NCBI GenBank assembly: GCA_013138975.1
Contig: WTBR01000043.1
Location: forward strand, 28,941 to 92,940
Origin: Bacteroidales bacterium
GTDB taxonomy: Bacteria; Bacteroidota; Bacteroidia; Bacteroidales; UBA12077
Length of the DNA stretch: 64,000 nt
Direction: 5' to 3'
In this document: piece by piece, positions 1,049 to 32,400 of the stretch
Numbering within the stretch: the stretch's first letter is position 1
How the letters are laid out: each line of letters opens with the position of its first letter
Notes under the pieces: generated by a model
The model's database searches: none
Told to the model about the DNA's origin: nothing
Seen by the model: the letters and a program-made list of their open reading frames with translations, nothing else
Made by a program: the position numbers and the translations under genes

Positions 1049-4000
1049 ATGCAAATTCTCGATAAAAAAAATATTGAAGATATAATTGAACTTTCTCCAT
1101 TACAAGAAGGGATGTTTTTTCATTATTTAAACGATGAGAGCTTCGCTCAATATCATGAACAGCTTTGCATTGAGATGACAGGATGCCTTAAGTTAGACTT
1201 GGTTCAACAAGCCTGGCAGATGGTTGTGGATACAAATCAATTGTTGAGGGTACTATTTAGATGGGAAAAAATTAAAACTCCCATTCAAATTGTTTTGAAA
1301 AACCACACCGCAGATTTTGCATACTATAATTTAAAGAATAACAACAGTGAAATAAAGAGTATCAATGAACTTTTAGAACAAGATCTTAAATTAAAATTTG
1401 ACCTTTCAAAAGTGCCATTTCGAGTAAAATTGGTTGAAACTGATGAGAATAAAAGCTTTCTAATTGTTAGTAATCATCATATTTTATATGATGGCTGGAG
1501 CACAGGCATTATTCTAAATGATTTTTTCACTAACTATAATGGATTAATACAAGATCCTAATCTTAAGCCTTTAGTGAAGCCGGAGAATGTTTTTAGGAAA
1601 TATGTGGCGCATTTAAAGAAGTCAAAAAACATTAAAGCATTAGATTATTGGAAAAAGGAATTTGAAGGAATCAAATCAAATACTGATTTGCAATTCGAAA
1701 ATACTGATAATCAAACACCTCCTGATTATGAACTTGTAGATTCTTTGTTAAGTGAAGACTTAAACGAAAAACTAAATTCATTTACCGCTAATCATCGATT
1801 AACATTGTCTCAATATTTTTATTGTGCCTGGGCTATTTTGTTATATAAGTATAATTATAATGGCAAAAATATTGTTTTTGGGACAACAGTATCAGATCGT
1901 TCATTAAATATTTTAGGTATCCAGGAGTCAGTCGGATTATATATTAATACAGTACCTTGTATTGCGAAAATTAAACCTGAGAATACGATAATTCAAACCT
2001 TAATTGAATTAAAGTCGTTCCTCGATAAAAGAACAGATTTTGAATCTGTTCCCTTATCCGATATTATTACAAACTGTTGCAACATTAATAGGGAAATTTT
2101 CAACTCCATTCTTGTCGTAGAGAATTACCCGATTAGTTCAAAAAAATACTCCAATTCTGATTTAGAGATTAATTCAATTACCGATCATGGAGTTACGAAT
2201 TATGATATTACAGTAAGGATTAAAACGCATAAGGAACTTAAAGTGGAGATTAGTTATAATAAATCTAACTATTCTTCTTATTACGTAAATCAATTGTTAA
2301 ATCAATATGTAAACATTTTACAATTATTATATAAATCATCGGATATTTCAATTGGGAATTTTGATTTTTTGACTCATGAAGAAAAAGAACGATTACTTTA
2401 TTCATGGAATAATACAGAATCTGATGTAAACAAAGAAAAAAATATTGTAGAGCTGTTCGAAAATGTTGCTCGAAAGAATAATGAAAAAGTTTTATGTGTA
2501 AGTGAAGATAGAATCTTTACATATGGATATATCTCTAAAAGAGTAAATGCACTTGCTAGCCAATTATTATCAAAAGGAGCAGTAAAGGAAAATATTGTTG
2601 GAGTAATCGTTTCGCGAAACGAATTATTGATTATTTCAATACTCGGGATATTAAAAGCGGGATGTGCTTATTTGCCAATCGATCCTGAATATCCAACAGA
2701 TAGGGTTTCCTATATGTTAGAAGATAGTGAAGTTGAAATAATTATTACAGATGACAAAAATCAAAATATTTTCGAAAATTCCGACTCTAATTATAAAATT
2801 CTGGATATTTCAGAACCATGCATAACAAATGAATACCTTGAAATAAATAAGGATATTGATCCAGGATCTTTAGCATATCTTATATATACATCAGGTTCTA
2901 CAGGTAAGCCAAAAGGGATTTTAATAGAACAAGCCAGCGTAATAAATTTTTGTCATGCAATAAAAAATCGTATTCCAATTGAACCAGAGCATGGAATGCT
3001 AATGTTAACAACAATTTCATTTGACATCTTCGTTCTTGAAATGTTTGTTCCATTGTTAATAGCTTCGAAAATAATTATTGCAAACGAGAAAGAGCAGAAG
3101 GATACACATTTACTAAGTAAACTGATGGCAAGAAGCGCAGTCGATTTAGTTCAAATGACTCCGTCAAGGTTGCAAATGATCTTAGAAGATGACGAACAAA
3201 AAGATTGTTTAAAGCCTGTCAAAATATTAATGATAGGAGGAGAATCGTTCCCCGAAAATGTATTAAAGTCCTTAAAAGAGAGTTACAAGAATAAAATTTA
3301 TAATATGTATGGGCCCACTGAAACAACAGTATGGTCTACAATAGGTGAATTAACAAATAATGAGGAAATTAATATTGGACAACCAATATTAAATACCCAG
3401 ACATATATATTGGATTCTTCGGGAAATTTAATGCCAAATGGGGCTTCGGGCGAATTGTGCATAGGCGGTGAAGGAGTTTTAAGAGCATATTGGAGAAATG
3501 AAAAATCGAACAAAGAGAAAATTATAGAAAATCCTTTTATATCAGGTCAAAAGATATTTAAAACCGGTGATATTGCACGATGGAATAAAAATGGGGAATT
3601 AGAATGTTTTGGAAGGATCGATGATCAAGTAAAAATAAGAGGATTTAGAATTGAGTTAGGTGAAATTGAAAATCAAGCTAATCAAATTCAAGGAATCATT
3701 AATGTTGCAGCTTCCGTATTTGAAATTAACCCGGGAAATAAGGCATTGTGTTTGTACTATGTTTCTGATATTGAAATCGATAGCGAATATCTTATAGAAG
3801 AATTATCGGGGAAAATACCTTATTATATGGTTCCTCAGCGTTATGTCCGCTTGAATTCCCTGCCACTTACCCTAAATGGGAAAATAAACAGGAGATTGTT
3901 ACCTAAACCAACTGTAAATTCTCAGAAGTCTTTAAGCATGCCTGTTACAAGTGAAGAAAAGGAGATGGTGAAGATTTGGAGTGATGTTTTAAGCGTTGAT

Positions 4001-5572
4001 GTTTGTAAAATTGGGCTTGAGAGTAACTTCTTTGAGCTGGGTGGGCATTCAATAAAAGCTACACTTTTAGTTTTAAGGATAAAAAAAGAACTTGGAATGG
4101 ATGTGTCCATTTCAGATATCTTTAATAAGCAATCCATTAATAAGATTTTAACTGTTGGAAAGAAGAAAATAGAAGATAAGTCTTTCATTCAAAAATCTGT
4201 CGAAAAAAGAGAATACTACTCCGCTTCCTCAACCCAGAAAAGGTTATTTGCACTACAAGCAATGCAAGATGATACTTCTTTCAATATGTCGATCGCTTTT
4301 AAATTAAAAGGTGAAGCAAATGAGAAGAAAATAGAAGAAATTTTCAATATACTTATACAAAGACATGAAAGTTTAAGAGTCTCTTTTCAAGTGATAGATA
4401 ACAATATTGTTCAGATTGTTGATGATAATGCAGATATAAAACTCAAATCACGATTAATAAAGAATAGCGAAATCGATGGAGTTATTGAAGATTTTATTAC
4501 AAAATTTGATATTAGTGTTGCTCCACTTTTACGGGTAGGCTTATTTAAAATTATAGATTCTGATGATGCCGGGTTTAACTATTTATTGGTAATTGACGTG
4601 CATCATATAATTGCTGATGAAGCATCATATAAGATATTAATTCAAGAGTTTATTGATTTATACTCTGGTAAGAAATTAGCAGTAACAGAACTACAGTATA
4701 AGGAATTTGCATATTGGCAAAATGATACAGTAAATAATGATGCATTAAGAAAACAGGAAAAGTATTGGTTAAGTAAATTTTCAGATGGAATTAATGAATT
4801 AAACCTTCCGAAAAGAGAAGATTCTATTCAGATTGAAGACCAAGCCGCAATTAAAAGATTCGAACTTGACCTTGATAAATCTATAATACTAAGCGAATTT
4901 GTTAAAAGTTCGAATACAACAATGTATGTATTTCTTTTATCCATTTTTAAAGTATTACTAAGTAAATATTGTAACCAAAAAGATATTATTGTTACATCTC
5001 CGGTTTCTACACGACCCGGCATTAAATTTCAAAATACCATTGGTTTATTTGTAAATATGTTGCCAATGAAAAGCCATATTGAACCAGATATGGAATATTC
5101 TAATTACCTTTTAGATTTGAAAAATGAGGTGATGAGTAATTTGGAGAATGATATGTTTCAATTTGAAAACATCGTTTGGAGTCTTAAGATAAAGGAAAAA
5201 TTTAAACGAAATATATTACTTGATGCCGTTTTCGTGTATAACGAAATAAAGGATAATGAAAATAAATTCATTTTAAAAGATCAAAACGGTACAAATAAAT
5301 TAGTTCAAAAAGACATTGATAAAAAGGATTTACAAAACAATTTACAAATAGATGCTATAAAAAAGAAGGGGAATGTTTCCTTCGAACTTTCATATAGGAC
5401 AAAAGATTACACAGAAGAGGCTATCGAATTATTTGCAGAAAATTATCTCCTTATCTTGAACCAGGTTTTAGAAGATAAATCAATTTTAATTAAAGATATT
5501 ATTATTGATTCTAATAAGATAACGGTAGATGCTCCTGTAATTTCCAATCCGGATTCTGATTTTAGATTTTAA
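1049..5572 (+). CDS. NRPS subunit, C-A-T-C (A domain Gly-like code)
   Basis: N-terminal C domain: LSPLQEGMFFH, HHILYDG at 1475-1495. A domain: YTSGSTGKPKG at 2885-2917, NMYGPTETT, GELCIGGEGVLRAYW, FKTGDIARW, GRIDDQVKIRGFRIELGEIE, LNGKINRR. T domain: FFELGGHS, Ser codon 4049-4051. Second C domain: SSTQKRLFALQ, HHIIADE at 4601-4621. The protein ends ...DSDFRF. Confidence 0.9.
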   Translation: MQILDKKNIEDIIELSPLQEGMFFHYLNDESFAQYHEQLCIEMTGCLKLDLVQQAWQMVVDTNQLLRVLFRWEKIKTPIQIVLKNHTADFAYYNLKNNNSEIKSINELLEQDLKLKFDLSKVPFRVKLVETDENKSFLIVSNHHILYDGWSTGIILNDFFTNYNGLIQDPNLKPLVKPENVFRKYVAHLKKSKNIKALDYWKKEFEGIKSNTDLQFENTDNQTPPDYELVDSLLSEDLNEKLNSFTANHRLTLSQYFYCAWAILLYKYNYNGKNIVFGTTVSDRSLNILGIQESVGLYINTVPCIAKIKPENTIIQTLIELKSFLDKRTDFESVPLSDIITNCCNINREIFNSILVVENYPISSKKYSNSDLEINSITDHGVTNYDITVRIKTHKELKVEISYNKSNYSSYYVNQLLNQYVNILQLLYKSSDISIGNFDFLTHEEKERLLYSWNNTESDVNKEKNIVELFENVARKNNEKVLCVSEDRIFTYGYISKRVNALASQLLSKGAVKENIVGVIVSRNELLIISILGILKAGCAYLPIDPEYPTDRVSYMLEDSEVEIIITDDKNQNIFENSDSNYKILDISEPCITNEYLEINKDIDPGSLAYLIYTSGSTGKPKGILIEQASVINFCHAIKNRIPIEPEHGMLMLTTISFDIFVLEMFVPLLIASKIIIANEKEQKDTHLLSKLMARSAVDLVQMTPSRLQMILEDDEQKDCLKPVKILMIGGESFPENVLKSLKESYKNKIYNMYGPTETTVWSTIGELTNNEEINIGQPILNTQTYILDSSGNLMPNGASGELCIGGEGVLRAYWRNEKSNKEKIIENPFISGQKIFKTGDIARWNKNGELECFGRIDDQVKIRGFRIELGEIENQANQIQGIINVAASVFEINPGNKALCLYYVSDIEIDSEYLIEELSGKIPYYMVPQRYVRLNSLPLTLNGKINRRLLPKPTVNSQKSLSMPVTSEEKEMVKIWSDVLSVDVCKIGLESNFFELGGHSIKATLLVLRIKKELGMDVSISDIFNKQSINKILTVGKKKIEDKSFIQKSVEKREYYSASSTQKRLFALQAMQDDTSFNMSIAFKLKGEANEKKIEEIFNILIQRHESLRVSFQVIDNNIVQIVDDNADIKLKSRLIKNSEIDGVIEDFITKFDISVAPLLRVGLFKIIDSDDAGFNYLLVIDVHHIIADEASYKILIQEFIDLYSGKKLAVTELQYKEFAYWQNDTVNNDALRKQEKYWLSKFSDGINELNLPKREDSIQIEDQAAIKRFELDLDKSIILSEFVKSSNTTMYVFLLSIFKVLLSKYCNQKDIIVTSPVSTRPGIKFQNTIGLFVNMLPMKSHIEPDMEYSNYLLDLKNEVMSNLENDMFQFENIVWSLKIKEKFKRNILLDAVFVYNEIKDNENKFILKDQNGTNKLVQKDIDKKDLQNNLQIDAIKKKGNVSFELSYRTKDYTEEAIELFAENYLLILNQVLEDKSILIKDIIIDSNKITVDAPVISNPDSDFRF

Positions 5573-5607
5573 TTTCAGGTTTGAGCGGAAACAAAAGAGC
5601 TTATATT

Positions 5608-5760
5608 ATGTCAACGATGCTTTTTTAGTTGAAAACCTGACAGAGTCAGAATGACCTAACAGATCTAAATGAGATATTCATATTCGCCTAGCCGCTTGAA
5701 GCGGCTTGGCGAATTCAAAACTCTGTCAGGCAGACCCGAAACATAAAGCTTGACTTGACA
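5608..5760 (-). repeat. intergenic repeat family A (MITE/REP-like), full copy, inverted orientation
   Basis: The reverse complement begins TGTCAAGTCAAGCTT..TTTCGGGTC.GCCTGACAGAGTTTT and ends GGTCATTCTGACTCTGTCAGGTTTTCAACTAAAAAAGCATCGTTGACAT. Both ends match the copy at 24359-24487. The internal segment differs and contains the hairpin TTCGCCTAGCCGC/GCGGCTTGGCGAA (~5684-5716). Confidence 0.8.
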
Positions 5761-5853
5761 ATAGTTTTTGTTCTTACTTTCGAGCAAATAAAATATAAAG
5801 GTTTTTTTTAAATATAAAACAATAGTATATCAACCTTGTAAAATATCTTAGCG

Positions 5854-7560
5854 ATGAATAAAAACATGGTATCCGAAAATACAAGAATTTTAATGATGCA
5901 ATTACCCTTTTGGGCACCTTTAATTCCGCCACAGGGTATCGCACGACTTAAAACCTATTTGAATATGAATGGGTATAATAATGTTGTGACAATAGATGCA
6001 AATGTTGAAACTCAGTTTAAAAATATATACGAAGATTATTTTAATCACGCAAAAGAATATATTCCGGATGAGTTACACGGGAATTTTTACGATAATGGAC
6101 ATGATGTTTTCCGACTTCATTTAATGGCTCACTTGAATTGTAAAGTTGAGAAGGATTATATTCATCTGGCAGGATTGTTATTTGATTCAATTTACTTATA
6201 TATTCCATCAAACCAGGAAATCATTAATCTTAATAAGATTATAGATTCTTTTTATACTAAATTGGAAACATATTTCTTGTCTTTGATGAAGGAATATGAT
6301 CCGGAAATAATAGGATTTTCACTTCACAGCGGTAATTTCCCTGCAACCATATTTTTAAGTGAACTGGTAAGAAAAATAAGGCCTGATACTAAAATTATTC
6401 TTGGAGGTAGCATGTTTGCAGGTGAACTCAGACAAGAAACTCCGGATTTTGAAATGTTCATTAAAAGAACCGGAAATCTATTTGATAAAATTTTTATAGG
6501 ATTAAGCGAACGTGCCTTATATAAATATTTGCGTGGAGAATTGCCTGAAGATAAAAAAGTAATTTGTCAAGAGGATTTGAACGAGAAAATAATGACCATA
6601 AATTCTTTTGTAAAACCGGATTTATCTGATTTTGATTTATCAAAATACTCAACAATTGCGAGTTATACCTCTTTAAGTTGTACAAATGAATGTAGCTTTT
6701 GTAACGAAAAATCATTTTGGGGTGAATATCAAAAGAGAGATTTATCATTGGCAGTGAATGAGATAGTGAAGTCTTATGAAGAATATAAACCCGGTTATTT
6801 TTTCATGTTAGATGTAATGTTAAATCATACAATAGATGATTTTTCGAAAGCCATAATTGAAACAAAATTGCCAATATACTATGATGGTTATTTAAGAGTA
6901 TCTGAAGATTCGTGCGACTATGAAAAATGCATGACATGGAGACAGGGAGGATTATATAGGGTAAGAATGGGCTTGGAGAGTGGATCGCAAAAATTGCTTG
7001 ATGATATGAAAAAAGGGATTACTGTAGAGCAATCAAAACAAACTTTACATAACCTTGCGAAAGTAGGTATCAAAACAACAGGTTATTTTGTAATTGGTCA
7101 TCCGGGAGAAACAGAAGAAGATTTTATTAAAACCCTTAATTTTATTGAAGAATCAAAAGATAATTTCTGGCAAATAGAACCACATGTGTTTAATTATATG
7201 CATACGGGACAAAATTCGGGTGACATCTGGTCTGAAAATAGAAGCCTTATTTATCCTGAAAAATATAATGAGCATCTTATTTGTACAAGATGGAAAATTG
7301 ATCTTGAGCCAAATAGAAACACGGTTTTTGAAAGGCTTTTAAGATTCGTTAAACATTGTGATAAGCTCGGTATCAAAAATCCGTATTATTCATATGAAAA
7401 ATATAATGCAGATCTCCGTTGGAAAAGATTGCATAAAAATGCAGTTCCTTCTACCTTGGAGCTTGATAGTCATAATTTTACTGATACAGTTCGTGGTATT
7501 GAGGATCGAATAGAAGCTGCAATTATCAAGGATGACTCAAATGGTGATTTTGCATTTTAA
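5854..7560 (+). CDS. B12-binding (class B) radical SAM enzyme
   Basis: The N-terminal Rossmann-like cobalamin-binding-type segment reads ILMMQLPFWAPLIPPQGIARLKTYL...EIIGFSLHS...KIILGGSMF. The CxxxCxxC radical SAM motif CTNECSFC lies at 6679-6702. It is a paralog of the 49333 gene and ends ...NGDFAF. Confidence 0.85.
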   Translation: MNKNMVSENTRILMMQLPFWAPLIPPQGIARLKTYLNMNGYNNVVTIDANVETQFKNIYEDYFNHAKEYIPDELHGNFYDNGHDVFRLHLMAHLNCKVEKDYIHLAGLLFDSIYLYIPSNQEIINLNKIIDSFYTKLETYFLSLMKEYDPEIIGFSLHSGNFPATIFLSELVRKIRPDTKIILGGSMFAGELRQETPDFEMFIKRTGNLFDKIFIGLSERALYKYLRGELPEDKKVICQEDLNEKIMTINSFVKPDLSDFDLSKYSTIASYTSLSCTNECSFCNEKSFWGEYQKRDLSLAVNEIVKSYEEYKPGYFFMLDVMLNHTIDDFSKAIIETKLPIYYDGYLRVSEDSCDYEKCMTWRQGGLYRVRMGLESGSQKLLDDMKKGITVEQSKQTLHNLAKVGIKTTGYFVIGHPGETEEDFIKTLNFIEESKDNFWQIEPHVFNYMHTGQNSGDIWSENRSLIYPEKYNEHLICTRWKIDLEPNRNTVFERLLRFVKHCDKLGIKNPYYSYEKYNADLRWKRLHKNAVPSTLELDSHNFTDTVRGIEDRIEAAIIKDDSNGDFAF

Positions 7561-7602
7561 TATTGATGTATTCAATTTAATCCGACCAAATAATTATTAA
7601 TT

Positions 7603-8766
7603 ATGAAATATTTCTCTTTACCTGCTGATTTTAAAACTGAAACTATTGATAAATATGTTGAGCTAAACAACAAGTTTTCAGGATCGAAAGTTTCCGAAAC
7701 TTATGGGCAAATCACGGTAGGCGCATATACGGGGTCGGGTCGAAGTATTAAATTATTACCAAAAACCGATTTTGCTGATTTAGAGAAATATGTTAAATAT
7801 TCTCAGGATAGGGGGATTAAATTCAACTATACATTCAATACTGCTTGTATGGCTAATTCTGAATTTACTGAAAAAGGAATGGCAGAATTGAAGGATTTCT
7901 TTTATAAACTTGATAATATTAATATTAAATCACTAACAATAGCATTACCATCATTAATTGAATTAGTAAAGGAGATATTACCGGAAACTGAAATTAAAGT
8001 TTCAGCTATTTCTAATGTTATTTCACCTGATAATGCCCTGTTTTATAAGAAAATGGGAGCGAAAAGGTTAGTGCCAAATACTGATATTAACCGTAATTTT
8101 ACATTACTCGGAGCCATATCAAAATGTTTTGGAGATGGAGTAGAAATAATTGTAAACAGCGTTTGTTATAAGAATTGTCCTTATAAGATCTTCCATTATA
8201 ATCATGAATCACATTCTAATAATAATCAAGACGTTGACAATTATTATTTCCATAGGTGTACAATGCAAAAAACAATGGAACTTAAGAATATGGTTCGTTT
8301 AAATTGGATTAGACCTGAAGATTTAAATTTATATGAAGATATTGGAATTCATCATTTTAAGCTCCAAGGCAGGAATAATGTGTATAATGGCGATCCTGCA
8401 AAATCTATCGAAGCATACTTTAAAGAAGAATACGAAGGCAACTTATATGACTTATTAACACTTTTTTCCCCAATCAATTCATATCATCCTTTTATCGACA
8501 ATAAGAAATTGGATGGTTACATAGAACGATTTAAAAAAGATCCTGAATTCTGTAAAAACATTTGTAGTGAATGTAATTATTGCGATCGTTTTGCTCAAAA
8601 ATCGATGGATAAAAATCATATGGACGAGTTGAATAGTTCTACTTATCAATTATATAATGGGATTGACGGGTATAATAAACTTGTTAAACAAGAAAAAGAA
8701 AAAAACGAGAAAAAAACGATTGAAGCTACATTTTCACCTGATGATAAAGAAGATTTTAATTTTTAA
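7603..8766 (+). CDS. U32-family (peptidase U32 / UbiU-UbiV-like) protein
   Basis: The layout resembles U32 proteins by eye: a TIM-barrel-like N-half (IKVSAISNVISPDNALFYKKMGAKRLV), a Cys-containing strand VEIIVNSVCYKNCPY, and HHFKLQGRNN (compare the conserved KIEGR of U32). There is an extra C-terminal Cys cluster, CKNICSECNYC. It ends ...KEDFNF. The family assignment has not been checked by HMM. Confidence 0.55.
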   Translation: MKYFSLPADFKTETIDKYVELNNKFSGSKVSETYGQITVGAYTGSGRSIKLLPKTDFADLEKYVKYSQDRGIKFNYTFNTACMANSEFTEKGMAELKDFFYKLDNINIKSLTIALPSLIELVKEILPETEIKVSAISNVISPDNALFYKKMGAKRLVPNTDINRNFTLLGAISKCFGDGVEIIVNSVCYKNCPYKIFHYNHESHSNNNQDVDNYYFHRCTMQKTMELKNMVRLNWIRPEDLNLYEDIGIHHFKLQGRNNVYNGDPAKSIEAYFKEEYEGNLYDLLTLFSPINSYHPFIDNKKLDGYIERFKKDPEFCKNICSECNYCDRFAQKSMDKNHMDELNSSTYQLYNGIDGYNKLVKQEKEKNEKKTIEATFSPDDKEDFNF

Positions 8767-8807
8767 CTTATTCTACTATGACAGATTTAACTTTTATACA
8801 AAATCAA

Positions 8808-8857
8808 CCTGTTTTTACCCTTGCTCCATAAAGGGAACAGGATGATTTTTCAGTTTT
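8808..8857 (+). terminator. candidate intrinsic terminator after the U32-like gene
   Basis: The imperfect hairpin CCTGTT(TTTA)CCCTT-GCTCCAT-AAGGGAACAGG at 8808-8841 is followed by ATGATTTTTCAGTTTT. It lies 42 nt after the stop at 8766. Confidence 0.3.
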
Positions 8858-8953
8858 CTCCCTTTAGGGTTTGGGGCAAAAAAGATGAAAAATCTTAATT
8901 CTGTCTAATCTGTTAAAGTAGAACTAATTAAATAGCAACAAGTATAATTAATC

Positions 8954-10789: not shown

Positions 10790-10790
10790 A

Positions 10791-10850
10791 TCGACCTGAC
10801 AGGTCATTCTGACTCTATCAGGATTTCAACTGAAAAAACATCGTTGACTT
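10791..10850 (+). repeat. repeat family A, internally deleted copy
   Basis: The sequence is TCGACCTGACAGGTCATTCTGACTCTATCAGGATTTCAACTGAAAAAACATCGTTGACTT. This joins the left CGACCTGACAG core directly to the right arm of the 24359 copy. It starts 2 nt after the rSAM stop codon. Confidence 0.75.
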
Positions 10851-10892
10851 AACTATCAATTTATTTCCCGGATAAAACAATACTTTGTTAAT

Positions 10893-10972: not shown

Positions 10973-11044
10973 TTTTTAATTTCAATCGAATACTGAAACC
11001 TAACGAACTATAAATATAAAATAGCAATTTTAAAATATATCAAA

Positions 11045-14000
11045 ATGACACAAAAAGAAAGCTCAAGTCATTCTACTACATCCACTAATAAATACGAAAA
11101 AGAAAGAGATTTCTGGTATTCTAAATTTTCTGATGGAGTAATACGAAATATTATACCTTATGATGTGATCGACGAGGTAGATTTATCTTCAAAGTATCTA
11201 ATTGAAGAGTTTGTTCTTAGTCAGGAAATATCAAAAAAACTTTTCTGGTTATCTAATGAATCAGATTATCGTTTATTAATGATATTGATTACAGGAATTA
11301 CCTCACTTCTTAAAAAGTATACAGGAAATAACGATATCACCATTGGAACTTCCATATATAAACAAAAAGTTGACGGGGATTTTATAAATAAGATTTTACC
11401 TATTAGAAATGTCATTAATGACGATGCTACTTTCAAGGATGTGATTATTTTATCAAAGGATAATCTGGAAAATGCAGTATTACACCAAAACTTCCCCATT
11501 GATTCTTTATCAATGAATAATTCAGGGAATGGTCATTTTCTGTTTAACAATGCTGTTTTATTGAAGAATATTCAAAGTGAAAGCTATATCGATCATTTAG
11601 AACTTGATTTACTATTCGCATTCGAAAGGATAAATGACGATATCAAACTTTCGATTAATTATAGTCCTAAATTATATAAAAAATCAACCATCGATAGATT
11701 CTATAGTCATTTCGATGCCTTTATGCAAAAATCCCTGGGTAATATAAATGAACAGTTAAAGGGTATTTCACTTATCACGGTAAAAGAAAAAGAAGATTAT
11801 CTTTTCAATAAAAATACGGGACTTACCCAAGCCCTGGATCATGAAAATATTGTAAGTTGGTTTGAAGATATAGTTGAGCGCTTTCCAAATAACAATGCTG
11901 TTTCCATGGATCAATTTGGAAAAAGTAGTGGTGATATTATTACTGAAAAGAAACTCAATATTACATATAAGGAATTAAATGATAAAGCAAATAATTTGGC
12001 TTATCAGTTAAGAAAAGAAGGATTGAAAGAAGGAAGTACTGTTGGCCTGTTGATGTATCCGGGAATTGAAGTCGCAATAAGTGTTCTGGGGGTTTTGAAA
12101 GCTCGGGGTGTTTATTTGCCGATAGCTGCAGAAACTCCAAATACAAGAATGGAACATATGCTTAAAGATTGCAATGCAGAGTTTCTTGTAGTCGATAAAA
12201 GAGTGGAATCAACTGCCGATGAAATTAAGAATCAAATAGAAAATATAAAGATTATTTCTGTTTGTGATAAAATTGAAGAACTTGGTAATGGCAATCTTGA
12301 TTTGCCTTATTCCAAAGAAGATCCTATTTATGTAATTTATACTTCCGGTTCAATGGGTTATCCTAAAGGAGTTCTTGTAGGAAATTCAGGTTTGATAAAT
12401 TATGTTCAATGGAGAAGAGAAGCATATGAATATAATGAGAAGGATATTTCTTTACAATTGCTGTCCTATAGTTTTGATGGTTTCTATTCTAATTTTTTCA
12501 CCAGTTTACTTACTGGTGGACAGTTAATTATGGTACCTGAGACACACATGCTTGAATTATCGTATTTAAATTCCTTGATCAAAGAAACAGGAGTAAGCAA
12601 TACTAGTCTTATTCCTAGATTGTTCGAGAGTATATTTAACAATCAAAAAGAAAGAGAACTTGAGAGTCTCCGGTTTGTTGTTTTAGCTGGTGAGAAAACC
12701 GACGAAGAATTAAAGGCAGGAATTAGAGAATGTTATCCTAAACTTAAAATCATTAATGAGTTTGGTTTAACCGAAACCAGTGTTACTTCAATTGCAAACC
12801 TTAATTATGCACAGGATGATTCTAATATATTAGGAAATCCAATAAACAATAATACGATATACATTCTTGATAAAGATTTAAACCCAGTACCTAAAGGAAT
12901 TTGCGGCGAATTATATATTTCGGGGATAGGATTGGCAAAGGGGTATTTGAATGAACCTGTTTTAACAGGAGATAGTTTTATAAAGAATCCGTTTAAAGAA
13001 GATACCTTGATGTATAAAACGGGTGATCTTGCTAGTTGGTCTGACGATGATACCATAAGATATTTTGGTAGAAAAGATTACCAGGTAAAAATTCGAGGTT
13101 TTCGAATCGAACTTAGTGAAATTGAAGAATGTATGAAGAAACATCCAATGCTTATGGATGCTTTAGTTATTACAAAAATGAATCATGCCAATGAGAGTCT
13201 GCTTATTGGATATTATGTTTCTAAAAATGGGAAAGAGATAGGCGATTTGACAGATCATCTCCAGGAAATATTATCGGATTACATGATTCCTTCTATTTTA
13301 ATGGAAATAGGTGAATTTCCTAAAAATCAAAGTGGTAAACTTGATTACGGTAGATTGCCTGAACCAAAGATAAGTTCCTTTAACGAATATGTTTCTCCAA
13401 AAACCGATACAGAGAGAAGGTTGGTTTCTATTTGGAGCGAAGTTTTGAATATAGAAGAATCTAAAATAAGTAGTATCGATAATTTCTTCGAGTCAGGAGG
13501 ACATTCCTTAAATGCTACAATAATAATATCTAAAGTTCAAAAAGAATTTAATGTTAAAATTCCAATTATTGATGTTTTTGAATACCCTACCGTTAAATGT
13601 TTTGCTAAAAATTTAGAGGAGAAAAGCAAAAGCACATTTAAATCATTGGAGAAAGCAGTTTCAAAAGATTTTTATCCATTGTCATCCGGTCAGGAACGAT
13701 TATATTTTATTCAGGAAAAACAAAAAAATACCATTGCATATAACATCCCGCTCATATTAAAAATAGAGGGGAGTTTAGATATAAATACGATAGAATCAAT
13801 TTTTAACAAATTGGTCGAAAGACACGAAAGTCTTAGAACCGTATTTGTTATGAATGAAGATCGTCCGGTACAAAAAATTCTGGATCAGCTTAAAATTAAA
13901 ATCGATTGCCTAAAGCACGATCAAATAGATATAATGACTTTAAAAGAGGAATTCGTAAAACCTTTTAATTTAAACGAATCTCCTTTATTCAGAGTGATGC

Positions 14001-14986
14001 TTGTTGAATTAAAAGGAAAGATAGAATACCTGTTTTTTGATATACATCATATTATTACAGATGCTTTATCAATGCAAATTCTGGTTAATGATTTTATCAA
14101 GTGTTTATCGAATATTGAATTACCGCAACTAAAATATCAATACAAAGATTTCTCAGAGAATAGTCTTAATAGAAAAGGTAGCGATTTATTTAAGAAACAA
14201 GAAGAATTTTGGTTGGATCAATATAGAAATTCTTATAACCGACTTAAATTGCCTGTTGATAATGCGAATGTTGAAAATAATTTCATCCCTCAAAAAGCAG
14301 GCTTTATTATTAATAAAACTCAAACCGATAAGTTGAACCAAATTGCAAAAGATAACAATATGTCATTGTTTATCTTGATGCTAGGTATAACGAATGTGTT
14401 TATCTCTAAATTATGTAACCAGGAGGATATTGTAATTGGGATTCCGGTAGCAGGAAGACTTCATGATGATCTTTCTGATATCGTAGGTTTGTTTATTAAT
14501 ACACTTGCTCTTAGGAATAATCCGGCGCAGGAAAAACAGGTCGGGGATTTTCTTAAGGAAGTAAAACAAAACACCTTTAATTGTTTGGAAAACCAAGAGT
14601 ATGATTTTGATATTTTGGTTGATAAGTTGGGAATAAAAAGAGTGGTTGGTCAAAACCCATTAATTGACTTATTCTTTATGTGGGATAATTTTAATTTGCC
14701 TGATATTAAATCAGAAACGGTGAGTTTAACACCGGTTTATTATGAAAATAATAACAAGTTCGATTTATCATTATTGGCTGATGAAAAACCAGATCAGATA
14801 GATTTTACAATAGAATATAATGCTGCTATTTTCAATGAAGACACGATTTTATTTATGACAAAATGGTACACAGATTTAGTGGATTGTATTTTGAATGACA
14901 CTCAAGTCAAAATAAAAGAATTACAGATAGATGCTTTTAGTAAACAAAATGAAAGTAATAGCATCGATATAACTTTTAATGTTTAA
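11045..14986 (+). CDS. NRPS subunit, half-C(C-lobe only)-A-T-C
   Basis: The N-terminal ~255 aa align with the post-His-motif half of C domains (DFWYSKF..., LLKKYTGNNDITIGTSIY..., HQNFPIDSL) but have no HHxxxDG. A domain: YTSGSMGYPKG, NEFGLTETS, GELYISGIGLAKGYL, YKTGDLASW, GRKDYQVKIRGFRIELSEIE, SGKLDYGR. T domain: FFESGGHS. C domain: YPLSSGQERLYFIQ, HHIITDALS. Confidence 0.9.
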   Translation: MTQKESSSHSTTSTNKYEKERDFWYSKFSDGVIRNIIPYDVIDEVDLSSKYLIEEFVLSQEISKKLFWLSNESDYRLLMILITGITSLLKKYTGNNDITIGTSIYKQKVDGDFINKILPIRNVINDDATFKDVIILSKDNLENAVLHQNFPIDSLSMNNSGNGHFLFNNAVLLKNIQSESYIDHLELDLLFAFERINDDIKLSINYSPKLYKKSTIDRFYSHFDAFMQKSLGNINEQLKGISLITVKEKEDYLFNKNTGLTQALDHENIVSWFEDIVERFPNNNAVSMDQFGKSSGDIITEKKLNITYKELNDKANNLAYQLRKEGLKEGSTVGLLMYPGIEVAISVLGVLKARGVYLPIAAETPNTRMEHMLKDCNAEFLVVDKRVESTADEIKNQIENIKIISVCDKIEELGNGNLDLPYSKEDPIYVIYTSGSMGYPKGVLVGNSGLINYVQWRREAYEYNEKDISLQLLSYSFDGFYSNFFTSLLTGGQLIMVPETHMLELSYLNSLIKETGVSNTSLIPRLFESIFNNQKERELESLRFVVLAGEKTDEELKAGIRECYPKLKIINEFGLTETSVTSIANLNYAQDDSNILGNPINNNTIYILDKDLNPVPKGICGELYISGIGLAKGYLNEPVLTGDSFIKNPFKEDTLMYKTGDLASWSDDDTIRYFGRKDYQVKIRGFRIELSEIEECMKKHPMLMDALVITKMNHANESLLIGYYVSKNGKEIGDLTDHLQEILSDYMIPSILMEIGEFPKNQSGKLDYGRLPEPKISSFNEYVSPKTDTERRLVSIWSEVLNIEESKISSIDNFFESGGHSLNATIIISKVQKEFNVKIPIIDVFEYPTVKCFAKNLEEKSKSTFKSLEKAVSKDFYPLSSGQERLYFIQEKQKNTIAYNIPLILKIEGSLDINTIESIFNKLVERHESLRTVFVMNEDRPVQKILDQLKIKIDCLKHDQIDIMTLKEEFVKPFNLNESPLFRVMLVELKGKIEYLFFDIHHIITDALSMQILVNDFIKCLSNIELPQLKYQYKDFSENSLNRKGSDLFKKQEEFWLDQYRNSYNRLKLPVDNANVENNFIPQKAGFIINKTQTDKLNQIAKDNNMSLFILMLGITNVFISKLCNQEDIVIGIPVAGRLHDDLSDIVGLFINTLALRNNPAQEKQVGDFLKEVKQNTFNCLENQEYDFDILVDKLGIKRVVGQNPLIDLFFMWDNFNLPDIKSETVSLTPVYYENNNKFDLSLLADEKPDQIDFTIEYNAAIFNEDTILFMTKWYTDLVDCILNDTQVKIKELQIDAFSKQNESNSIDITFNV

Positions 14987-15008
14987 ATTTTTTAAATAGT
15001 ATAAGTTC

Positions 15009-23654: not shown

Positions 23655-23705
23655 TCTTAAGAAATAGATAATTAAAGATATAACAAATAATTTAAGAGAA
23701 ATAGA

Positions 23706-29414: not shown

Positions 29415-32400
29415 ATGACGAATTTATCTAAGGAAAATACCACTTTAAATAAAAAAAGAGAAGAAAATAATTATTGGAAGACTCTTTTGTCTGGTATTAC
29501 ATTACCAACATATATACCTGTAGATTCTACTGTAATTAGGGGTGAGGGTGACTATAAGGAATTTAGCATTAATTTAGATGATGAAAGTTCTTCCTTTATT
29601 CTTAAAATCAGTAACAATTCAAACGTTCGTTTGCATATAATTCTTGTTTCGCTTGTAAAAGTATTGTTATATAAATACAGAACCCAATCCGAATTATTAA
29701 GTATAACAACAATCGATAAGCAGGTATCAGACAAAAAAATATTAAATCACATCTTACCATTTAAAACTTTTGTAGCCAAAGACCAATCTTTTAAAGAAGT
29801 TATTTTAGCTGTTAAAGAATCGTTGAAACAAGCATCCGATAACCAGAATTATCCAATTGAAAAGTTGGCAAAATCTATCGAACGACAACTTCAGTTCGAG
29901 AAACCCTACGGCTTATTTAACATAGCTATTCTTTTAGATGGCATGCATGATGAAAAATATTTAGAAGGAATTGATTGTCATTTGCTTTTTAAATTCCGAA
30001 AAATAAACGATAAGATCAATTTAGTTATTAAATATAAGGATGAATTATATACAAAGAATAAGATAGAACGAGTAGCCGGTCATCTGAAAAACATAGCCAA
30101 TTCCATAAGTAACAATATAGAATTACAAGTTAATTCAATCAACTATCTTTCAGAAAATGAAAGCAAAAACTTATTAGAAGGTTTAAATGAAAACATAGAA
30201 CAACCAATTCCGGAATCGATTTACCAAGTTATAAAAGAAAACGCAAAGAAATATGCCCATAAAGTAGCTCTTGTATATAAAGATGAACACATTACATATC
30301 AGGTATTAGACAAAAAGGCTAACAGCATAGCAAAAATATTGAAAATAAAAGGCGTAGTCCAAAATTCAATAGTAGGAGTGCTTGGGAATCGCTCTATGAA
30401 TACCATGTTAAATATCCTCGGAACACTAAAAGCTGGAGGAACCTATTTGCCTATTGATCCTGAATATCCTTTAGATCGAATAAAATTTATGATCGAGGAT
30501 GCAAACATTAAGTATTTATTAGTGGATCCTGAGGTGTATAGTAAGATTGAGATATCTGGTTTATTTGAAGAATTGGAAGATTCCACGGAATTAATACATA
30601 CTCAATGCAGGAGTCAAATTGAGGATTTTAATTCATTACCATTTCCCGATAGGTCGAAAGTGGACTATGACAAGTATAATAAACACATTGGTCAGGCCAT
30701 GGTAAAGAATAGTATTGCTATTCAAGCTACCCGTGGTTGTCCATATGCATGTGCATATTGTCATAAAATTTGGCCAAAGAAACATGTTTGGAGAAGTTCA
30801 GATAATATTTTCGAAGAAATACAGATGTATTACAATCAAGGAATAAAACGATTTGTTTTCATCGACGATATTTTCAATCTGAAAAAGAACAATAGCAAAG
30901 ATTTATTTAAAAAAATTATTGATAAGGGATTAAAAATTCAACTATTCTTTCCTAATGGCTTGCGAGGCGATATTTTAAATGAAGAGCTGATTGACCTTAT
31001 GGTTGAAGCAGGGATGGTTAATGTAGCCCTTGCATTGGAAACAGCATCTCCACGATTACAAAAGCTCATAGGAAAAAACTTGAACCTCGACAAACTAAGA
31101 ACCAACATCAACTATATCTGTGAAAAACACCCACATGTAGTTCTTGAATTGTTTACCATGCATGGCTTCCCAACCGAAACAGAAGAAGAAGCGAATAGCA
31201 CACTCGAATTTATTAAAAGTATTAAATGGCTTCATTTTCCATATGTTCATATCCTGAAAATATATCCTAATACCGATATGTCCAAATTGGCTATTGAAAA
31301 TGGAATATCTTCACTCGATATTGACAATTCGGCAAATTTATCCTATCACGAACTCCCGACCACTTTACCTTTTGAAAAGTCTTTTACTTTAAAATATCAA
31401 TCGGATTTTTTCAATAATTATTTCTTATCAAAAGAACGTTTGATAAAGGTTTTACCGCATCAAATGAAAGTTTTAACCGAGGACGAAATAGTTCAGAAAT
31501 ACAATAGTTATTTACCCGTTAACATAACTAATATTGAAGAATTGCTGGAATTCTTAAAAATTAGTAAAGAAGAACTGGGGGCATTCGAATTTGTTCAGGA
31601 AGATGAGTTTCATGTAAAAGATTTAAATAAAAAACTACAAGCTTGTTTTAAAAAAGATTACGAAGTAGAAAAAAATGCCTTCAAAATCCTTTTACTTGAC
31701 CTGTCACAGAATTTAACTTCCGATGAAGAGATGCTTTACGATGTAGTTGAGCCCCCTTTAGGCTTGATGTACCTCGCCGCATATGTAGAAGGCAAATTCA
31801 GGCAGGATGTTGATGTGCGAGTTTTAAAATCAAAAATTGATTTCGACAACTTTAGCGCTTTAAAGAATATATTAGATGATTTCAAGCCCGACGTAATCGG
31901 AGTCAGGACATTATCCTATTATAAAGAATTTTTTCATGAGACCATATCTAATATTCGTTTATGGAATCCATCGATCCCGATATTAGCTGGTGGGCCTTAT
32001 CCATCGAGCGACTATATGTCAACCCTGAAAGATGGCAACATAGATTTAGTAATTCAAGGAGAAGGAGAATTTACGTTTGGCGAAATTGTCGAATGCATGA
32101 TGAAGAATGATAATAAGTTGCCCGATGAGGAGCAGCTTAAAACCATAGATGGAATCCATTTCATGAAAAAGTCGGTGCTTAAACGTCAGATTATATCCAC
32201 CGATTTTAAGAACATAAACTCTGAACCGGAAGAATTAGCACATATCAATAAACCAGACGATGGCGCATACATTATATATACTTCAGGCACAACCGGTAGG
32301 CCAAAAGGAGTTATGGTATCCCATGAAAATGTTTTAAGCCTGTTAATAAATAACAATCATTTATTTGATTTCAATAAAGAAGATATTTGGTCAGTATTTC

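What the first reader, a model, noticed from the sequence alone, without database searches (positions are those of the whole stretch)
7603..8766. U32-family protein carrying the cluster's DFNF tail, translationally adjacent to an rSAM gene
The 387-aa protein resembles U32-family proteins by eye (...VEIIVNSVCYKNCPY..., HHFKLQGRNN versus the family's KIEGR region). It has an additional C-terminal CX3CX2CX2C cluster (CKNICSECNYC) and the same KEDFNF tail as the rSAM enzymes. It starts 42 nt after rSAM 5854.

From established knowledge, U32 members UbiU/UbiV, RlhA and TrhP are Fe-S proteins implicated in O2-independent hydroxylation. Few are true peptidases.

I infer that this protein could be an oxygen-independent hydroxylase, or another Fe-S tailoring enzyme, recruited to the assembly line by its tail. 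That would be a new context for the family. Together with the four rSAM units, it suggests a pathway built to run anaerobically.
Basis: partly seen in the sequence, partly recalled or inferred. Interest (0 to 1): 0.65.

Follow-up and report, generated by a model that had tools for sequence, protein, structure and literature searches.

The report
Tail-docked U32 iron-sulfur NRPS tailoring enzyme
This gene encodes a divergent member of the U32 iron-sulfur enzyme family (the family that adds hydroxyl groups without oxygen), and its short C-terminal tail appears to plug it into a peptide assembly line next to a module that loads an aromatic amino acid, a role for this family that I could not find described anywhere.

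Summary
It passes Pfam Peptidase_U32 (38.4 bits, cut-off 22.4) over only 70 of 233 profile positions. Its best solved relative, by sequence and by fold, is the U32 protein Mk0906. The catalytic Glu, the first Cys and the KIEGR-like motif align to RlhA/TrhP, but the canonical CX6CX15CX3C motif is absent. It is replaced by C188/C192/C219 plus C321/C324/C327 (with C317), conserved across a large subfamily (351 representatives at E<=1e-30).

The acidic aromatic-x-aromatic tail marks the NRPS-associated branch. In 78 related loci and at every junction in this window, a tail on a C-domain-ending subunit, rSAM or U32 precedes a subunit that starts with an extra half condensation domain.

The first adenylation domain after U32 has an aromatic-type code in 29 of 34 loci (here DGSSVAEVT, Tyr-like). 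One relative is fused to aminodeoxychorismate-synthase-like and chorismate-mutase domains, which links the subfamily to prephenate-type molecules.

Best reading: a trans-acting, O2-independent Fe-S oxidase, probably a hydroxylase, acting on the aromatic residue of module 11045. Chemistry and docking are inferred, not shown. This is a new variant of a known kind.

The parts
7603..8766 (+). Gene for the 387-aa divergent U32-family protein (stop codon included)
7735..7743 (+). Nearly invariant S45-G46-R47 loop (low pLDDT, probably a mobile ligand-binding loop)
   Evidence: R47 in 123/134 representatives
7879..8088 (+). Only stretch matched by Pfam Peptidase_U32 (aa 93-162, profile positions 1-70 of 233); core of the TIM barrel
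   Evidence: hhalign to E. coli U32 proteins covers aa 57-186
8143..8259 (+). E181...C188-X3-C192-X26-C219: the conserved Glu and first Cys align to RlhA E161/C169; the other two Cys do not have canonical spacing
   Evidence: RlhA mutagenesis in PMC5727448
8311..8373 (+). Invariant R237-P-E-D240 and K253-L-Q-G-R257, the counterpart of the U32 KIEGR motif
8551..8583 (+). C-terminal Cys cluster C317-X3-C321-X2-C324-X2-C327 (putative second Fe-S site or fourth ligand donor)
   Evidence: C321/C324/C327 in 122-126 of 134 representatives, C317 in 95
8743..8763 (+). Disordered acidic tail DKEDFNF-COOH (putative docking motif)
   Evidence: pLDDT <50; 88/120 homologues carry the motif; association with half-C subunits
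5854..7560 (+). B12-binding radical SAM enzyme with tail GDFAF, directly upstream; the gene order rSAM-U32-aromatic module recurs elsewhere
   Evidence: L035, L042, L082
8954..10789 (+). Second B12-binding radical SAM enzyme (a different type) with tail GDFNF
   Evidence: orthologues in L022 and L023 precede Ch-A(DGASVAEVA)-T
5552..5569 (+). Tail DSDFRF at the end of NRPS subunit 1049..5572 (C-A(Gly)-T-C), the upstream side of the junction
11045..11869 (+). N-terminal half condensation domain (C-terminal lobe only) of NRPS subunit 11045..14986; proposed acceptor of the tails
   Evidence: Pfam Condensation profile 187-454/456, E 1.3e-21
11873..12949 (+). Adenylation domain with specificity code DGSSVAEVT (Tyr-like aromatic type); proposed module whose residue is modified

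Best explanation
ORF 7603 encodes a trans-acting tailoring enzyme of a distinct, widespread subfamily of the U32 ('peptidase U32' / U32 oxidase) TIM-barrel family. It binds iron-sulfur cluster(s) through a non-canonical Cys set: C188, C192 and C219, plus C321, C324 and C327, with C317 and C82 as variable extra ligands.

Its disordered C-terminal acidic tail (...EDFNF-COOH) is a short docking motif. C-domain-ending NRPS subunits and the B12-radical-SAM enzymes carry the same kind of tail. The proposed partner is the extra, non-catalytic half condensation domain (C-terminal lobe) at the N-terminus of the next subunit, here ORF 11045.

Once docked, the enzyme modifies the aromatic (Tyr-like) residue activated by the adenylation domain of that subunit. 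The most likely reaction is an O2-independent hydroxylation that uses a prephenate-type co-substrate, as proposed for UbiU/UbiV, TrhP and RlhA. It acts alongside C-methylation by the two neighbouring B12-rSAM enzymes.

Shown here: family relationship, fold, Cys conservation, tail distribution, the tail/half-C gene-order rule, coupling to aromatic-type A domains, and the chorismate-mutase fusion in a relative. Inferred: Fe-S binding, physical docking, the substrate and the reaction.
For: Family and fold:
- PF01136 scores 38.4 bits against a cut-off of 22.4.
- 5d88 (Mk0906) is the only significant PDB relative: phmmer E 4e-5, profile E 3.6e-10.
- The AF2 model is confident (pLDDT 86, pTM 0.86) and is a beta/alpha barrel. 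Its best Foldseek hit is 5d88 at E 2.9e-9.
- The subfamily HMM hits RlhA at 2e-10 and TrhP at 1e-8. E181/C188 align to RlhA E161/C169, and KLQGR aligns to KIEGR.
- hhalign gives 96.5% probability.

Fe-S binding:
- Seven Cys are invariant in 89 subfamily proteins.
- C188/C192/C219 occur in 133-134 of 134 distant representatives, and C321/C324/C327 in 122-126 of 134.
- U32 members already vary in where the fourth ligand sits (UbiU C232, UbiV C39). RlhA needs its C-terminal Cys residues (PMC5727448).

Docking:
- The tail is present in 88/120 homologues and absent from the clades with no NRPS context.
- U32 with a tail is followed by an assembly-line ORF that starts with a half-C in 27/33 cases, against 8/56 for tail-less U32.
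- rSAM with a tail is followed by a half-C start in 11/12 cases.
- C-ending subunits with a tail are followed by a half-C start in 22/22 cases; T-ending subunits in 1/21.
- All 8 subunit junctions in the window obey the rule.
- Terminal C domains keep HHxxxD, so the half-C is an extra domain.
- In some loci a B12-rSAM is fused between the half-C and the A domain, directly downstream of U32.
- Unrelated enzymes also carry the tail: a beta-lactamase-fold protein, a non-B12 rSAM and a stand-alone half-C.

Substrate:
- The first A domain after U32 has the code DG[AST]S[VI]AE[IV]x in 22/34 loci, is Phe-like in 3 and His-like in 4. Among other A domains the DG-type code occurs in 10/55 (Fisher p about 1e-5).

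Prephenate link:
- Relative P0224 is a fusion of Chorismate_bind + CM_2 + U32, preceded by a GATase gene.
- Prephenate is the O donor of the UbiU/V pathway (PMC10990095).
- Glycosyltransferases and a PIG-L deacetylase sit beside U32 paralogues in L008.
Against: - The canonical CX6CX15CX3C motif that defines the characterised U32 oxidases (PMC11574389) is absent, and only the first Cys aligns.
- Pfam covers only 70 of 233 profile positions. The NCBIfam TrhP match is 20 bits against a cut-off of 534.
- No U32 protein has yet been shown to hydroxylate in vitro, and none is known to act on amino acids or carrier-protein-bound substrates.
- Docking is inferred from gene order only. Four tails face a single half-C domain at this junction, which is unexplained.
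- The assignment of the A-domain code to Tyr rests on my memory of published codes (resemblance to DGTITAEVA) and on a GrsA reference fragment recalled from memory. The extraction did return textbook codes for Gly, Thr, Leu, Val, Ser and Asn in the same window.
- The related loci are not phylogenetically independent, so the p-values overstate significance.
- The P0224 fusion is a single case. It points equally to prephenate-type molecules being the substrate rather than the co-substrate.
Confidence: 0.45

Rival explanations
1. Building-block supply. The U32 enzyme acts on a free prephenate-type metabolite (prephenate, arogenate or 4-amino-4-deoxyprephenate), for example by oxidative or non-aromatising decarboxylation. 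This makes an unusual aromatic or cyclohexadienyl keto or amino acid, which the specialised DG.S.AE adenylation domain then loads. The tail only keeps the enzyme near the module for channelling.
For: - The P0224 fusion has PabB/TrpE-like + chorismate mutase + U32 domains and an overlapping GATase gene. That is the layout of a p-aminophenylalanine-type pathway in which the U32 domain sits where the prephenate-type intermediate is consumed.
- The A-domain code coupled to U32 is unusual and is not a textbook Tyr or Phe code.
Against: - Seven U32-coupled modules have ordinary Phe-like (DAWT[IV]AAVC, DGWTIAAIC) or His-like codes.
- The tail/half-C rule is the same one used by assembly-line subunits, which suggests on-line action.
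- No aminotransferase or other shikimate-branch gene was detected among the window ORFs scanned.
Confidence: 0.2
2. A different Fe-S redox reaction on the same residue. Possibilities include desaturation, dehydroxylation, a cross-link, or electron transfer or other support for the B12-radical-SAM methylases, rather than hydroxylation.
For: - The non-canonical Cys set, with a possible three-Cys site and an open iron, resembles IspG/IspH-type or auxiliary-cluster chemistry (the comparison itself is from my own knowledge).
- U32 and B12-rSAM genes are adjacent in the window, and the order rSAM-U32-module recurs.
- 22 of 30 loci with a tail-bearing U32 in NRPS/PKS context have an rSAM within 10 kb (one search gives 18, with typed rSAM hits, gives 18 of 30).
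Against: - 12 of 30 NRPS loci with a tail-bearing U32 have no rSAM within 10 kb.
- The clade with no NRPS context consists of single genes without rSAM neighbours, so the enzyme works on its own.
- Every U32 function assigned so far is hydroxylation (PMC10990095, PMC11574389).
Confidence: 0.2
3. A true U32 peptidase (collagenase/PrtC-like) that matures, activates or degrades the peptide product.
For: Database names such as 'collagenase-like PrtC family protease'. Prodrug-activating peptidases do occur in NRPS clusters (my own knowledge).
Against: - Those names are propagated annotation.
- Six to seven Cys are conserved, together with the Glu/Cys pair required for RlhA hydroxylation.
- The protein has no signal peptide-like N-terminus.
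- The tail is shared with rSAM enzymes and precedes an adenylation module.
Confidence: 0.03
4. The tail is not a docking motif for the half-C domain. It binds some other common partner (a scaffold, chaperone or compartment), or it is a compositional by-product.
For: No physical evidence for the interaction exists. Several tails face one half-C domain. An AF2 test of the pair could not be run.
Against: The gene-order rule is very tight: 22/22, 27/33 and 11/12. The tail is absent from T-ending subunits and from non-NRPS U32 clades. It is conserved at the extreme C-terminus in unrelated enzyme families.
Confidence: 0.12

Closest known systems
UbiU/UbiV (E. coli O2-independent ubiquinone hydroxylases, U32 family)
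   Same: Same Pfam family and TIM-barrel core. They are Fe-S proteins whose fourth Cys ligand sits at variable positions. They ortho-hydroxylate a phenol ring, which is chemically what Tyr-to-DOPA would be, using prephenate as O donor (PMC10990095). They work as a pair of paralogues, and many related loci here carry two tandem U32 paralogues.
   Different: Sequence similarity is marginal (subfamily HMM E 0.009 for UbiU, not significant for UbiV). The Cys spacing differs. UbiU/V have no C-terminal CX3CX2CX2C and no docking tail. Their substrate is a prenylated lipid bound by UbiT, not an NRPS-linked residue.
RlhA and TrhP (rRNA C2501 and tRNA U34 hydroxylation factors, U32 family)
   Same: They are the best-aligning characterised relatives (E 2e-10 and 1e-8). 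E181/C188 align to RlhA E161/C169, and KLQGR to KIEGR. RlhA also needs extra C-terminal Cys residues (PMC5727448). Both hydroxylate sp2 carbons of aromatic rings and depend on prephenate.
   Different: They carry the canonical CX6CX15CX3C motif, have RNA substrates and extra domains (DUF3656), and are housekeeping genes without tails.
Mk0906 of Methanopyrus kandleri (PDB 5d88), the only solved U32 structure
   Same: It is the top hit by sequence (profile E 3.6e-10, aa 51-208) and by fold (Foldseek E 2.9e-9, TM 0.68 normalised to the target).
   Different: It has 254 residues, lacks the Cys residues at the positions of C188/C192 and the C-terminal Cys cluster (alignment), and has no known function.
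SLiM / beta-hairpin docking domains of NRPS-PKS systems (e.g. rhabdopeptide Kj12, TubC, enacyloxin; review PMC9113145)
   Same: A short, charged C-terminal linear motif, of which only the last ~5 residues bind, recruits the next subunit. Such motifs also occur on some trans-acting enzymes, and one motif can serve several partners.
   Different: The known partner is a ~70-aa alpha-beta-beta-alpha-alpha domain. Here the N-terminus of the partner subunit is a ~260-aa C-terminal lobe of a condensation domain, starting at about residue 10, which leaves no room for a beta-hairpin domain. The donors here are mostly full C domains, not carrier proteins.
X-domain recruitment of Oxy P450s in glycopeptide NRPS, and 'interface' domains that recruit beta-hydroxylases in siderophore NRPS (from my own knowledge, not checked here)
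   Same: A degenerate, non-catalytic condensation-type domain serves as the landing pad for trans-acting oxidative tailoring enzymes.
   Different: Those are full-length C-like domains that bind O2-dependent P450 or di-iron/2OG enzymes through folded surfaces. No C-terminal linear tail and no Fe-S U32 enzymes are involved.

Membership tests
Peptidase_U32 family (Pfam PF01136 / IPR001539) | Score above the curated Pfam gathering threshold | tested here: met
   38.4 bits against 22.4, E 1.1e-9, but only profile positions 1-70 of 233. All listed homologues but one carry PF01136.
Peptidase_U32 family (Pfam PF01136 / IPR001539) | [quoted passage not shown] | tested here: met
   AF2 pLDDT 86 with alternating strand/helix pattern. 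Foldseek top hit 5d88, E 2.9e-9. Profile against PDB: 5d88 is the only significant hit, E 3.6e-10.
Peptidase_U32 family (Pfam PF01136 / IPR001539) | Conserved Glu-x6/7-Cys at the end of a barrel strand, and a K-I-E-G-R motif | tested here: met
   E181/C188 align to RlhA E161/C169 and TrhP C170. K253-L-Q-G-R257 aligns to KIEGR, with E replaced by Q.
U32 oxidases (UbiU/V, TrhP, RlhA type) | Four Cys in a CX6CX15CX3C motif (or the UbiU/UbiV variants) that bind a [4Fe-4S] cluster | tested here: not met
   The spacing here is C188-X3-C192-X26-C219. hhalign stops before the motif. E. coli positions were listed. The motif definition comes from PMC11574389.
U32 oxidases (UbiU/V, TrhP, RlhA type) | An Fe-S cluster is actually bound | not testable with these tools
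   Only inferred, from 6-7 conserved Cys. No model coordinates were returned with which to measure Cys geometry.
U32 oxidases (UbiU/V, TrhP, RlhA type) | Prephenate-dependent, O2-independent hydroxylation | not testable with these tools
   Indirect only: the fusion of relative P0224 to Chorismate_bind + CM_2, and the coupling to aromatic-type A domains.
Equivalog of TrhP (NCBIfam NF011996) | Score above the curated cut-off | tested here: not met
   20 bits against a cut-off of 534.
Radical SAM superfamily (considered because C317-X3-C321-X2-C324 has the CX3CX2C spacing) | Radical_SAM profile match, with the CX3CX2C loop after the first barrel strand | tested here: not met
   No PF04055 hit. 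The motif lies after the barrel, at aa 317-327 of 387. C317 is the least conserved of the four Cys (95/134).
SLiM / beta-hairpin docking pair | C-terminal short linear motif on the donor protein | tested here: met
   Disordered tail (pLDDT <50) ending in acidic aromatic-x-aromatic. It is present on U32, rSAM and C-ending subunits.
SLiM / beta-hairpin docking pair | An N-terminal beta-hairpin docking domain of about 70 aa on the acceptor subunit | tested here: not met
   Acceptor subunits start directly with the C-terminal lobe of a condensation domain (Pfam Condensation 187-454, from residue 13).
SLiM / beta-hairpin docking pair | Physical binding of the tail to the N-terminal domain | not testable with these tools
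Only gene-order statistics are available.

The most novel reading that the evidence does not exclude
A whole branch of the U32 Fe-S family has been recruited as oxygen-independent aromatic hydroxylases of non-ribosomal peptide assembly lines. These enzymes act on carrier-protein-bound Tyr-, Phe- or His-type residues with a prephenate-type oxygen donor. They are delivered by a previously undescribed docking code (an acidic aromatic-x-aromatic C-terminal tail binding an N-terminal half condensation domain). The same code orders the NRPS subunits and recruits B12-radical-SAM and other trans-acting enzymes. This would give anaerobes a counterpart of the P450, 2OG and di-iron hydroxylases of aerobic NRPS pathways, and would give U32 chemistry its first small, defined and loadable substrate.
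Probability: 0.3. Interest if true: 0.85.

Novelty: new variant of a known kind. Interest (0 to 1): 0.7.

Why it matters
U32 'oxidases' are the only known enzymes proposed to hydroxylate with an organic oxygen donor (prephenate). No member has been reconstituted in vitro, because the known substrates are a membrane lipid and folded RNAs. An NRPS-linked member would act on an amino acid tethered to a small carrier domain. Such a substrate can be loaded enzymatically and read out by mass spectrometry, which would make the open mechanistic question directly testable.

For natural-product biosynthesis, it would show how strict anaerobes install hydroxyl groups on peptide building blocks without O2. 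It also points to a large, uncharacterised family of clusters: at least 559 hits in species-representative genomes, across Clostridia, Paenibacillus, Aminicenantes and other phyla.

The tail/half-C rule, if physical, is a simple and portable docking code. It could be used to predict subunit order and to attach tailoring enzymes to engineered assembly lines.

Tried and rejected
The HMM and hhalign align only the barrel core and the first Cys. The remaining Cys residues cannot be equated, so I do not claim canonical ligands.
- Radical SAM reading of CX3CX2C. Rejected: no profile hit, wrong position, and C317 is the least conserved Cys.
- Selenocysteine or pseudogene explanation for loci where my ORF map lacked a U32 ORF (L020, L030, L043). 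Rejected: the ORFs are intact with tails. They were lost through my greedy overlap filter.
- Operon clues from the clade with no NRPS context. The neighbours vary, so nothing could be inferred.
- AF2 of a half-C + linker + tail chimera.
- Measuring Cys-Cys distances in the model. No coordinates are exposed.
- Literature searches for U32 in NRPS clusters, for tail/half-C docking, and for the A-domain codes DGSSVAEV, DGTITAEVA and the like. Nothing relevant was found.
- Idea that U32 is an obligate partner of B12-rSAM. Weakened: 12 of 30 tail-bearing NRPS loci have no rSAM within 10 kb.
- The fused B12-rSAM domains between half-C and A are only distant relatives of ORF 8954 (50-80 bits), so I do not call them orthologues.
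Full report
OBSERVATION. ORF 7603..8766 (+) is intact and encodes 387 aa. It starts 42 nt after the stop of the B12-radical-SAM ORF 5854..7560. All quoted strings are present: VEIIVNSVCYKNCPY, HHFKLQGRNN, CKNICSECNYC (aa 317-327) and the terminal KEDFNF.

The window is a 31% G+C, single-strand NRPS/PKS cluster. The 'four rSAM units' are three free-standing genes (5854, 8954, 49333) plus a Radical_SAM + B12-binding unit inserted inside a Thr-type adenylation domain of ORF 29415.

IS IT A U32 PROTEIN? Broadly, yes.
- Pfam Peptidase_U32 scores 38.4 bits (cut-off 22.4, E 1.1e-9), but only profile positions 1-70 of 233 match.
- NCBIfam gives only a 20-bit match to TrhP, against a cut-off of 534.
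- The only significant solved relative is the U32 protein Mk0906 (5d88): phmmer E 4e-5, subfamily profile E 3.6e-10.
- An AF2 model built on 26 homologues is confident (pLDDT 86, pTM 0.86) and shows a beta/alpha barrel followed by a helical C-terminal region and a disordered tail. Its best Foldseek match is again 5d88 (E 2.9e-9). The other matches are generic TIM barrels.
- I took UbiU, UbiV, TrhP and RlhA from E. coli K-12. The subfamily HMM hits RlhA (2e-10) and TrhP (1e-8), barely UbiU (0.009), and not UbiV.
- In that alignment E181 and C188 match RlhA E161 and C169, both needed for rRNA hydroxylation (PMC5727448). KLQGR matches KIEGR.
- The profile-profile comparison gives 96.5% probability but covers only aa 57-186 and stops before the Cys motif.

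CYSTEINES. The characterised U32 oxidases are defined by CX6CX15CX3C (PMC11574389). E. coli positions are 169/176/193/232 (UbiU), 39/180/193/197 (UbiV), 170/177/193/197 (TrhP) and 169/176/192/196 (RlhA). The protein here has C188-X3-C192-X26-C219 and C317-X3-C321-X2-C324-X2-C327.
- All seven Cys are invariant in 26 aligned homologues.
- They are invariant or nearly so in 89 proteins from related loci.
- Among 134 distant representatives, C188/C192/C219 are kept in 133-134, C321/C324/C327 in 122-126, C317 in 95 and C82 in 108.

So the canonical motif is not met, but a different Fe-S-type signature is strongly conserved. It could form two clusters, or one cluster plus an open-site cluster. I could not assign ligands because no coordinates were returned. 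The CX3CX2C spacing is not a radical SAM site: there is no profile hit, the position is wrong, and C317 is the least conserved Cys.

SIZE AND SHAPE OF THE SUBFAMILY.
- 435 close homologues.
- 1522, 1001 and 351 representatives at E<=1e-3, 1e-10 and 1e-30 in the 50%-identity library.
- At least 559 hits in species-representative genomes. These are mostly Clostridia, with others in Paenibacillus, Aminicenantes, KSB1, Armatimonadota, Victivallales, Kiritimatiellota, Bacteroidota and delta-proteobacteria.
- A neighbour-joining tree separates clades of single genes with no NRPS context and no tail from two large NRPS/PKS-associated clades. In many loci these two clades occur as tandem paralogues, reminiscent of UbiU/UbiV.

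THE TAIL. 88 of 120 homologues end in [FYW]-x-[FYWLI] within the last 12 residues (FDF, FEF, FNF, YDF...). About ten more have variants. Only 11 of 134 distant representatives have the motif. The tail is therefore a trait of the NRPS-associated branch, not of this cluster alone.

I mapped ORFs and domains in 81 loci using probes from the window. The results:
- A tail on U32 goes with a subunit that starts with a half condensation domain ('Ch') in the same locus: 28/4/9/35.
- The next assembly-line ORF after a tail-bearing U32 starts with Ch in 27/33 cases, against 8/56 for tail-less U32.
- For tail-bearing rSAM the figure is 11/12.
- C-domain-ending subunits with a strict tail are followed by a Ch-starting subunit in 22/22 cases. 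Of the 16 cases 'without' a strict tail that still precede a Ch, 13 carry variants such as DFDEIF. T-ending subunits are followed by Ch in only 1/21.
- Fisher tests give p values from 1e-5 to 4e-10, but the loci are not independent.

In the window the rule holds at all eight junctions. Tail precedes Ch at 1049>11045, 11045>15009, 15009>18931, 24549>29415, 41453>51190 and 51190>58235. There is no tail and no Ch at 18931>24549 and 29415>41453.

The Ch of ORF 11045 matches Pfam Condensation positions 187-454 only. The upstream terminal C domains keep HHxxxD, so Ch is an extra, non-catalytic lobe. In several loci a B12-rSAM domain is fused between Ch and A, directly downstream of U32. The tail also occurs on a beta-lactamase-fold protein, a non-B12 rSAM and a stand-alone Ch.

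The closest known system is the SLiM / beta-hairpin docking pair (PMC9113145), but no beta-hairpin domain is present here.

WHICH RESIDUE? I extracted Stachelhaus codes by aligning A domains to a GrsA fragment recalled from memory. Its numbering is self-consistent, and it returned textbook codes for Gly, Thr, Leu, Val, Ser and Asn in this window. ORF 11045, the first Ch-starting subunit after rSAM-U32-rSAM, has the code DGSSVAEVT. From memory, this is closest to the Tyr code DGTITAEVA.

Across loci, the first A domain downstream of U32 is DG[AST]S[VI]AE[IV]x in 22/34, Phe-like in 3 and His-like in 4. Among other A domains the DG-type code occurs in about 10/55. Orthologues of both rSAM types precede the same kind of module, and the order 5854-type rSAM, U32, aromatic module recurs in L035, L042 and L082. 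U32 is thus coupled to an aromatic-residue module.

PREPHENATE LINK. One representative, P0224 (924 aa, E 2e-42 to the query), is a fusion of Anth_synt_I_N + Chorismate_bind + chorismate mutase type II + U32. It is preceded by an overlapping GATase gene. This is the layout of an aminodeoxychorismate synthase plus mutase, joined to this U32 subfamily. Prephenate is the O donor of the UbiU/V pathway and is required for TrhP and RlhA function (PMC10990095, PMC11574389). In the Pseudobacteroides cellulosolvens-type cluster, two U32 paralogues flank a PIG-L deacetylase next to GT1 and GT4 glycosyltransferases. That fits a new hydroxyl serving as sugar acceptor, but the evidence is weak.

MECHANISM PROPOSED. 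The enzyme docks through its C-terminal tail on the half-C lobe of ORF 11045, sharing that site over time with the upstream C domain and the two rSAM enzymes. It oxidises the aromatic side chain of the T-bound residue through its Fe-S centre(s), and the intermediate is quenched by hydroxide released from prephenate. This is the same chemistry as phenol-to-catechol hydroxylation by UbiU/V. The B12-rSAM enzymes add C-methyl groups.

My confidence by layer:
- U32-family Fe-S enzyme: about 0.85-0.9.
- Tail docking on Ch: about 0.7.
- Aromatic residue of module 11045 as target: about 0.6.
- Hydroxylation: about 0.4.

Rivals are: synthesis of the building block from a prephenate-type metabolite; another Fe-S redox reaction or support of the rSAMs; a true peptidase; and a tail that binds another partner.

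NOVELTY. I found no report of U32 proteins in NRPS pathways, nor of a tail/half-C docking pair. The library does not hold all journals. I classify the finding as a new variant of a known kind: the U32 Fe-S family and NRPS docking by short C-terminal motifs.

CAVEATS. All functional statements are inferences from sequence, a predicted fold and gene order. The A-code interpretation rests partly on memory. Related loci share ancestry, so the counts are not independent events. My ORF caller dropped some U32 ORFs that overlap upstream genes, which slightly undercounts tail-bearing cases.

Noticed in passing
window 30555-32234 (aa 381-940 of ORF 29415..41249): A Radical_SAM (E 2e-20) plus B12-binding (E 2e-12) unit is inserted inside an adenylation domain with a Thr-type code (DFWNIGMVH). 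The A domain is split at about aa 380/940, and the rSAM part precedes the B12 part, the reverse of the order in the free-standing enzymes.
   Followed up: partly
window junctions at 5572/11045, 14986/15009, 18899/18931, 28979/29415, 45937/51190, 58221/58235: Every NRPS/PKS subunit that ends in a full, HHxxxD-containing C domain plus an acidic aromatic-x-aromatic tail is followed by a subunit that begins with a ~260-aa C-terminal lobe of a condensation domain. The two junctions without a tail (18931>24549, 29415>41453) have no half-C. This looks like an undescribed subunit-ordering code.
   Followed up: yes
P0224 / locus L086 3179-5953 (GCA_040777565.1): A 924-aa natural fusion of Anth_synt_I_N + Chorismate_bind + chorismate mutase type II + a U32 domain of this subfamily. 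An overlapping GATase gene precedes it. The layout resembles PapA/PapB, with U32 in the position where an aminoprephenate-type intermediate would be used.
   Followed up: partly
loci L008, L009, L011-L013, L015, L017, L029, L048, L056, L063, L073, L085: Two U32 paralogues of this subfamily sit in tandem and fall into two separate clades of the tree. This is reminiscent of the UbiU/UbiV heterodimer. The window has only one copy.
   Followed up: partly
loci L041, L050-L052, L054, L055, L057, L060, L061, L064, L065, L069, L078-L081, L083, L084: A clade of tail-less ~366-aa proteins keeps the same invariant Cys set. They occur as single genes with unrelated neighbours and no NRPS/PKS or rSAM context, which suggests a housekeeping function of unknown nature in Clostridia and other anaerobes.
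   Followed up: partly
L036 8481-10004; L038 12171-13376; L044 12500-13282: Other enzyme types carry the same kind of C-terminal tail: a beta-lactamase-fold protein (507 aa), a non-B12 radical SAM protein (401 aa), and a stand-alone 260-aa half-C domain that has its own DDDFEF tail (a possible adaptor).
   Followed up: partly
L008/L011 (Pseudobacteroides cellulosolvens) 2064-18001: The U32 paralogues flank a PIG-L family deacetylase. The cluster also has GT1 (EryCIII-like) and GT4 glycosyltransferases, a type II thioesterase and a trans-AT, suggesting a glycosylated lipopeptide-like product from an anaerobe.
   Followed up: no
window 49333-51009 and 51190-58221: The third B12-rSAM (a paralogue of 5854, tail EDFEFDL) lies before a half-C-starting subunit whose first A domain has a Val code (DAFWLGGTF). 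This may be a case of C-methylation of Val (tert-leucine type).
   Followed up: no
window 41453-45937: This ORF starts with only the N-terminal ~140 aa of an adenylation-like domain, followed by a KS-AT linker and an acyltransferase domain (Acyl_transf_1, E 1.4e-45), then A-like remnants, T and C. The hybrid architecture is unusual.
   Followed up: no
window 23133-24359 and 46046-48941: Five ORFs (173, 217, 324, 217 and 201 aa) inside the cluster have no significant Pfam match and no tail. Their function is unknown.
   Followed up: no
window 7561-7602 and 8900-8953: No Shine-Dalgarno-like sequence precedes the start codons of the U32 and rSAM genes. The 187-nt spacer after U32 is the longest gap in this part of the operon. 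The source organism was not identified; the closest genome hit to the U32 protein is only 53% identical.
   Followed up: no
L004 1-4130: A tail-less U32 in a PKS/NRPS cluster lies next to FecCD-type permeases, an ABC ATPase and an MFS transporter. This hints that some products of these clusters may be metal chelators (catechol-type, if U32 makes catechols).
   Followed up: no
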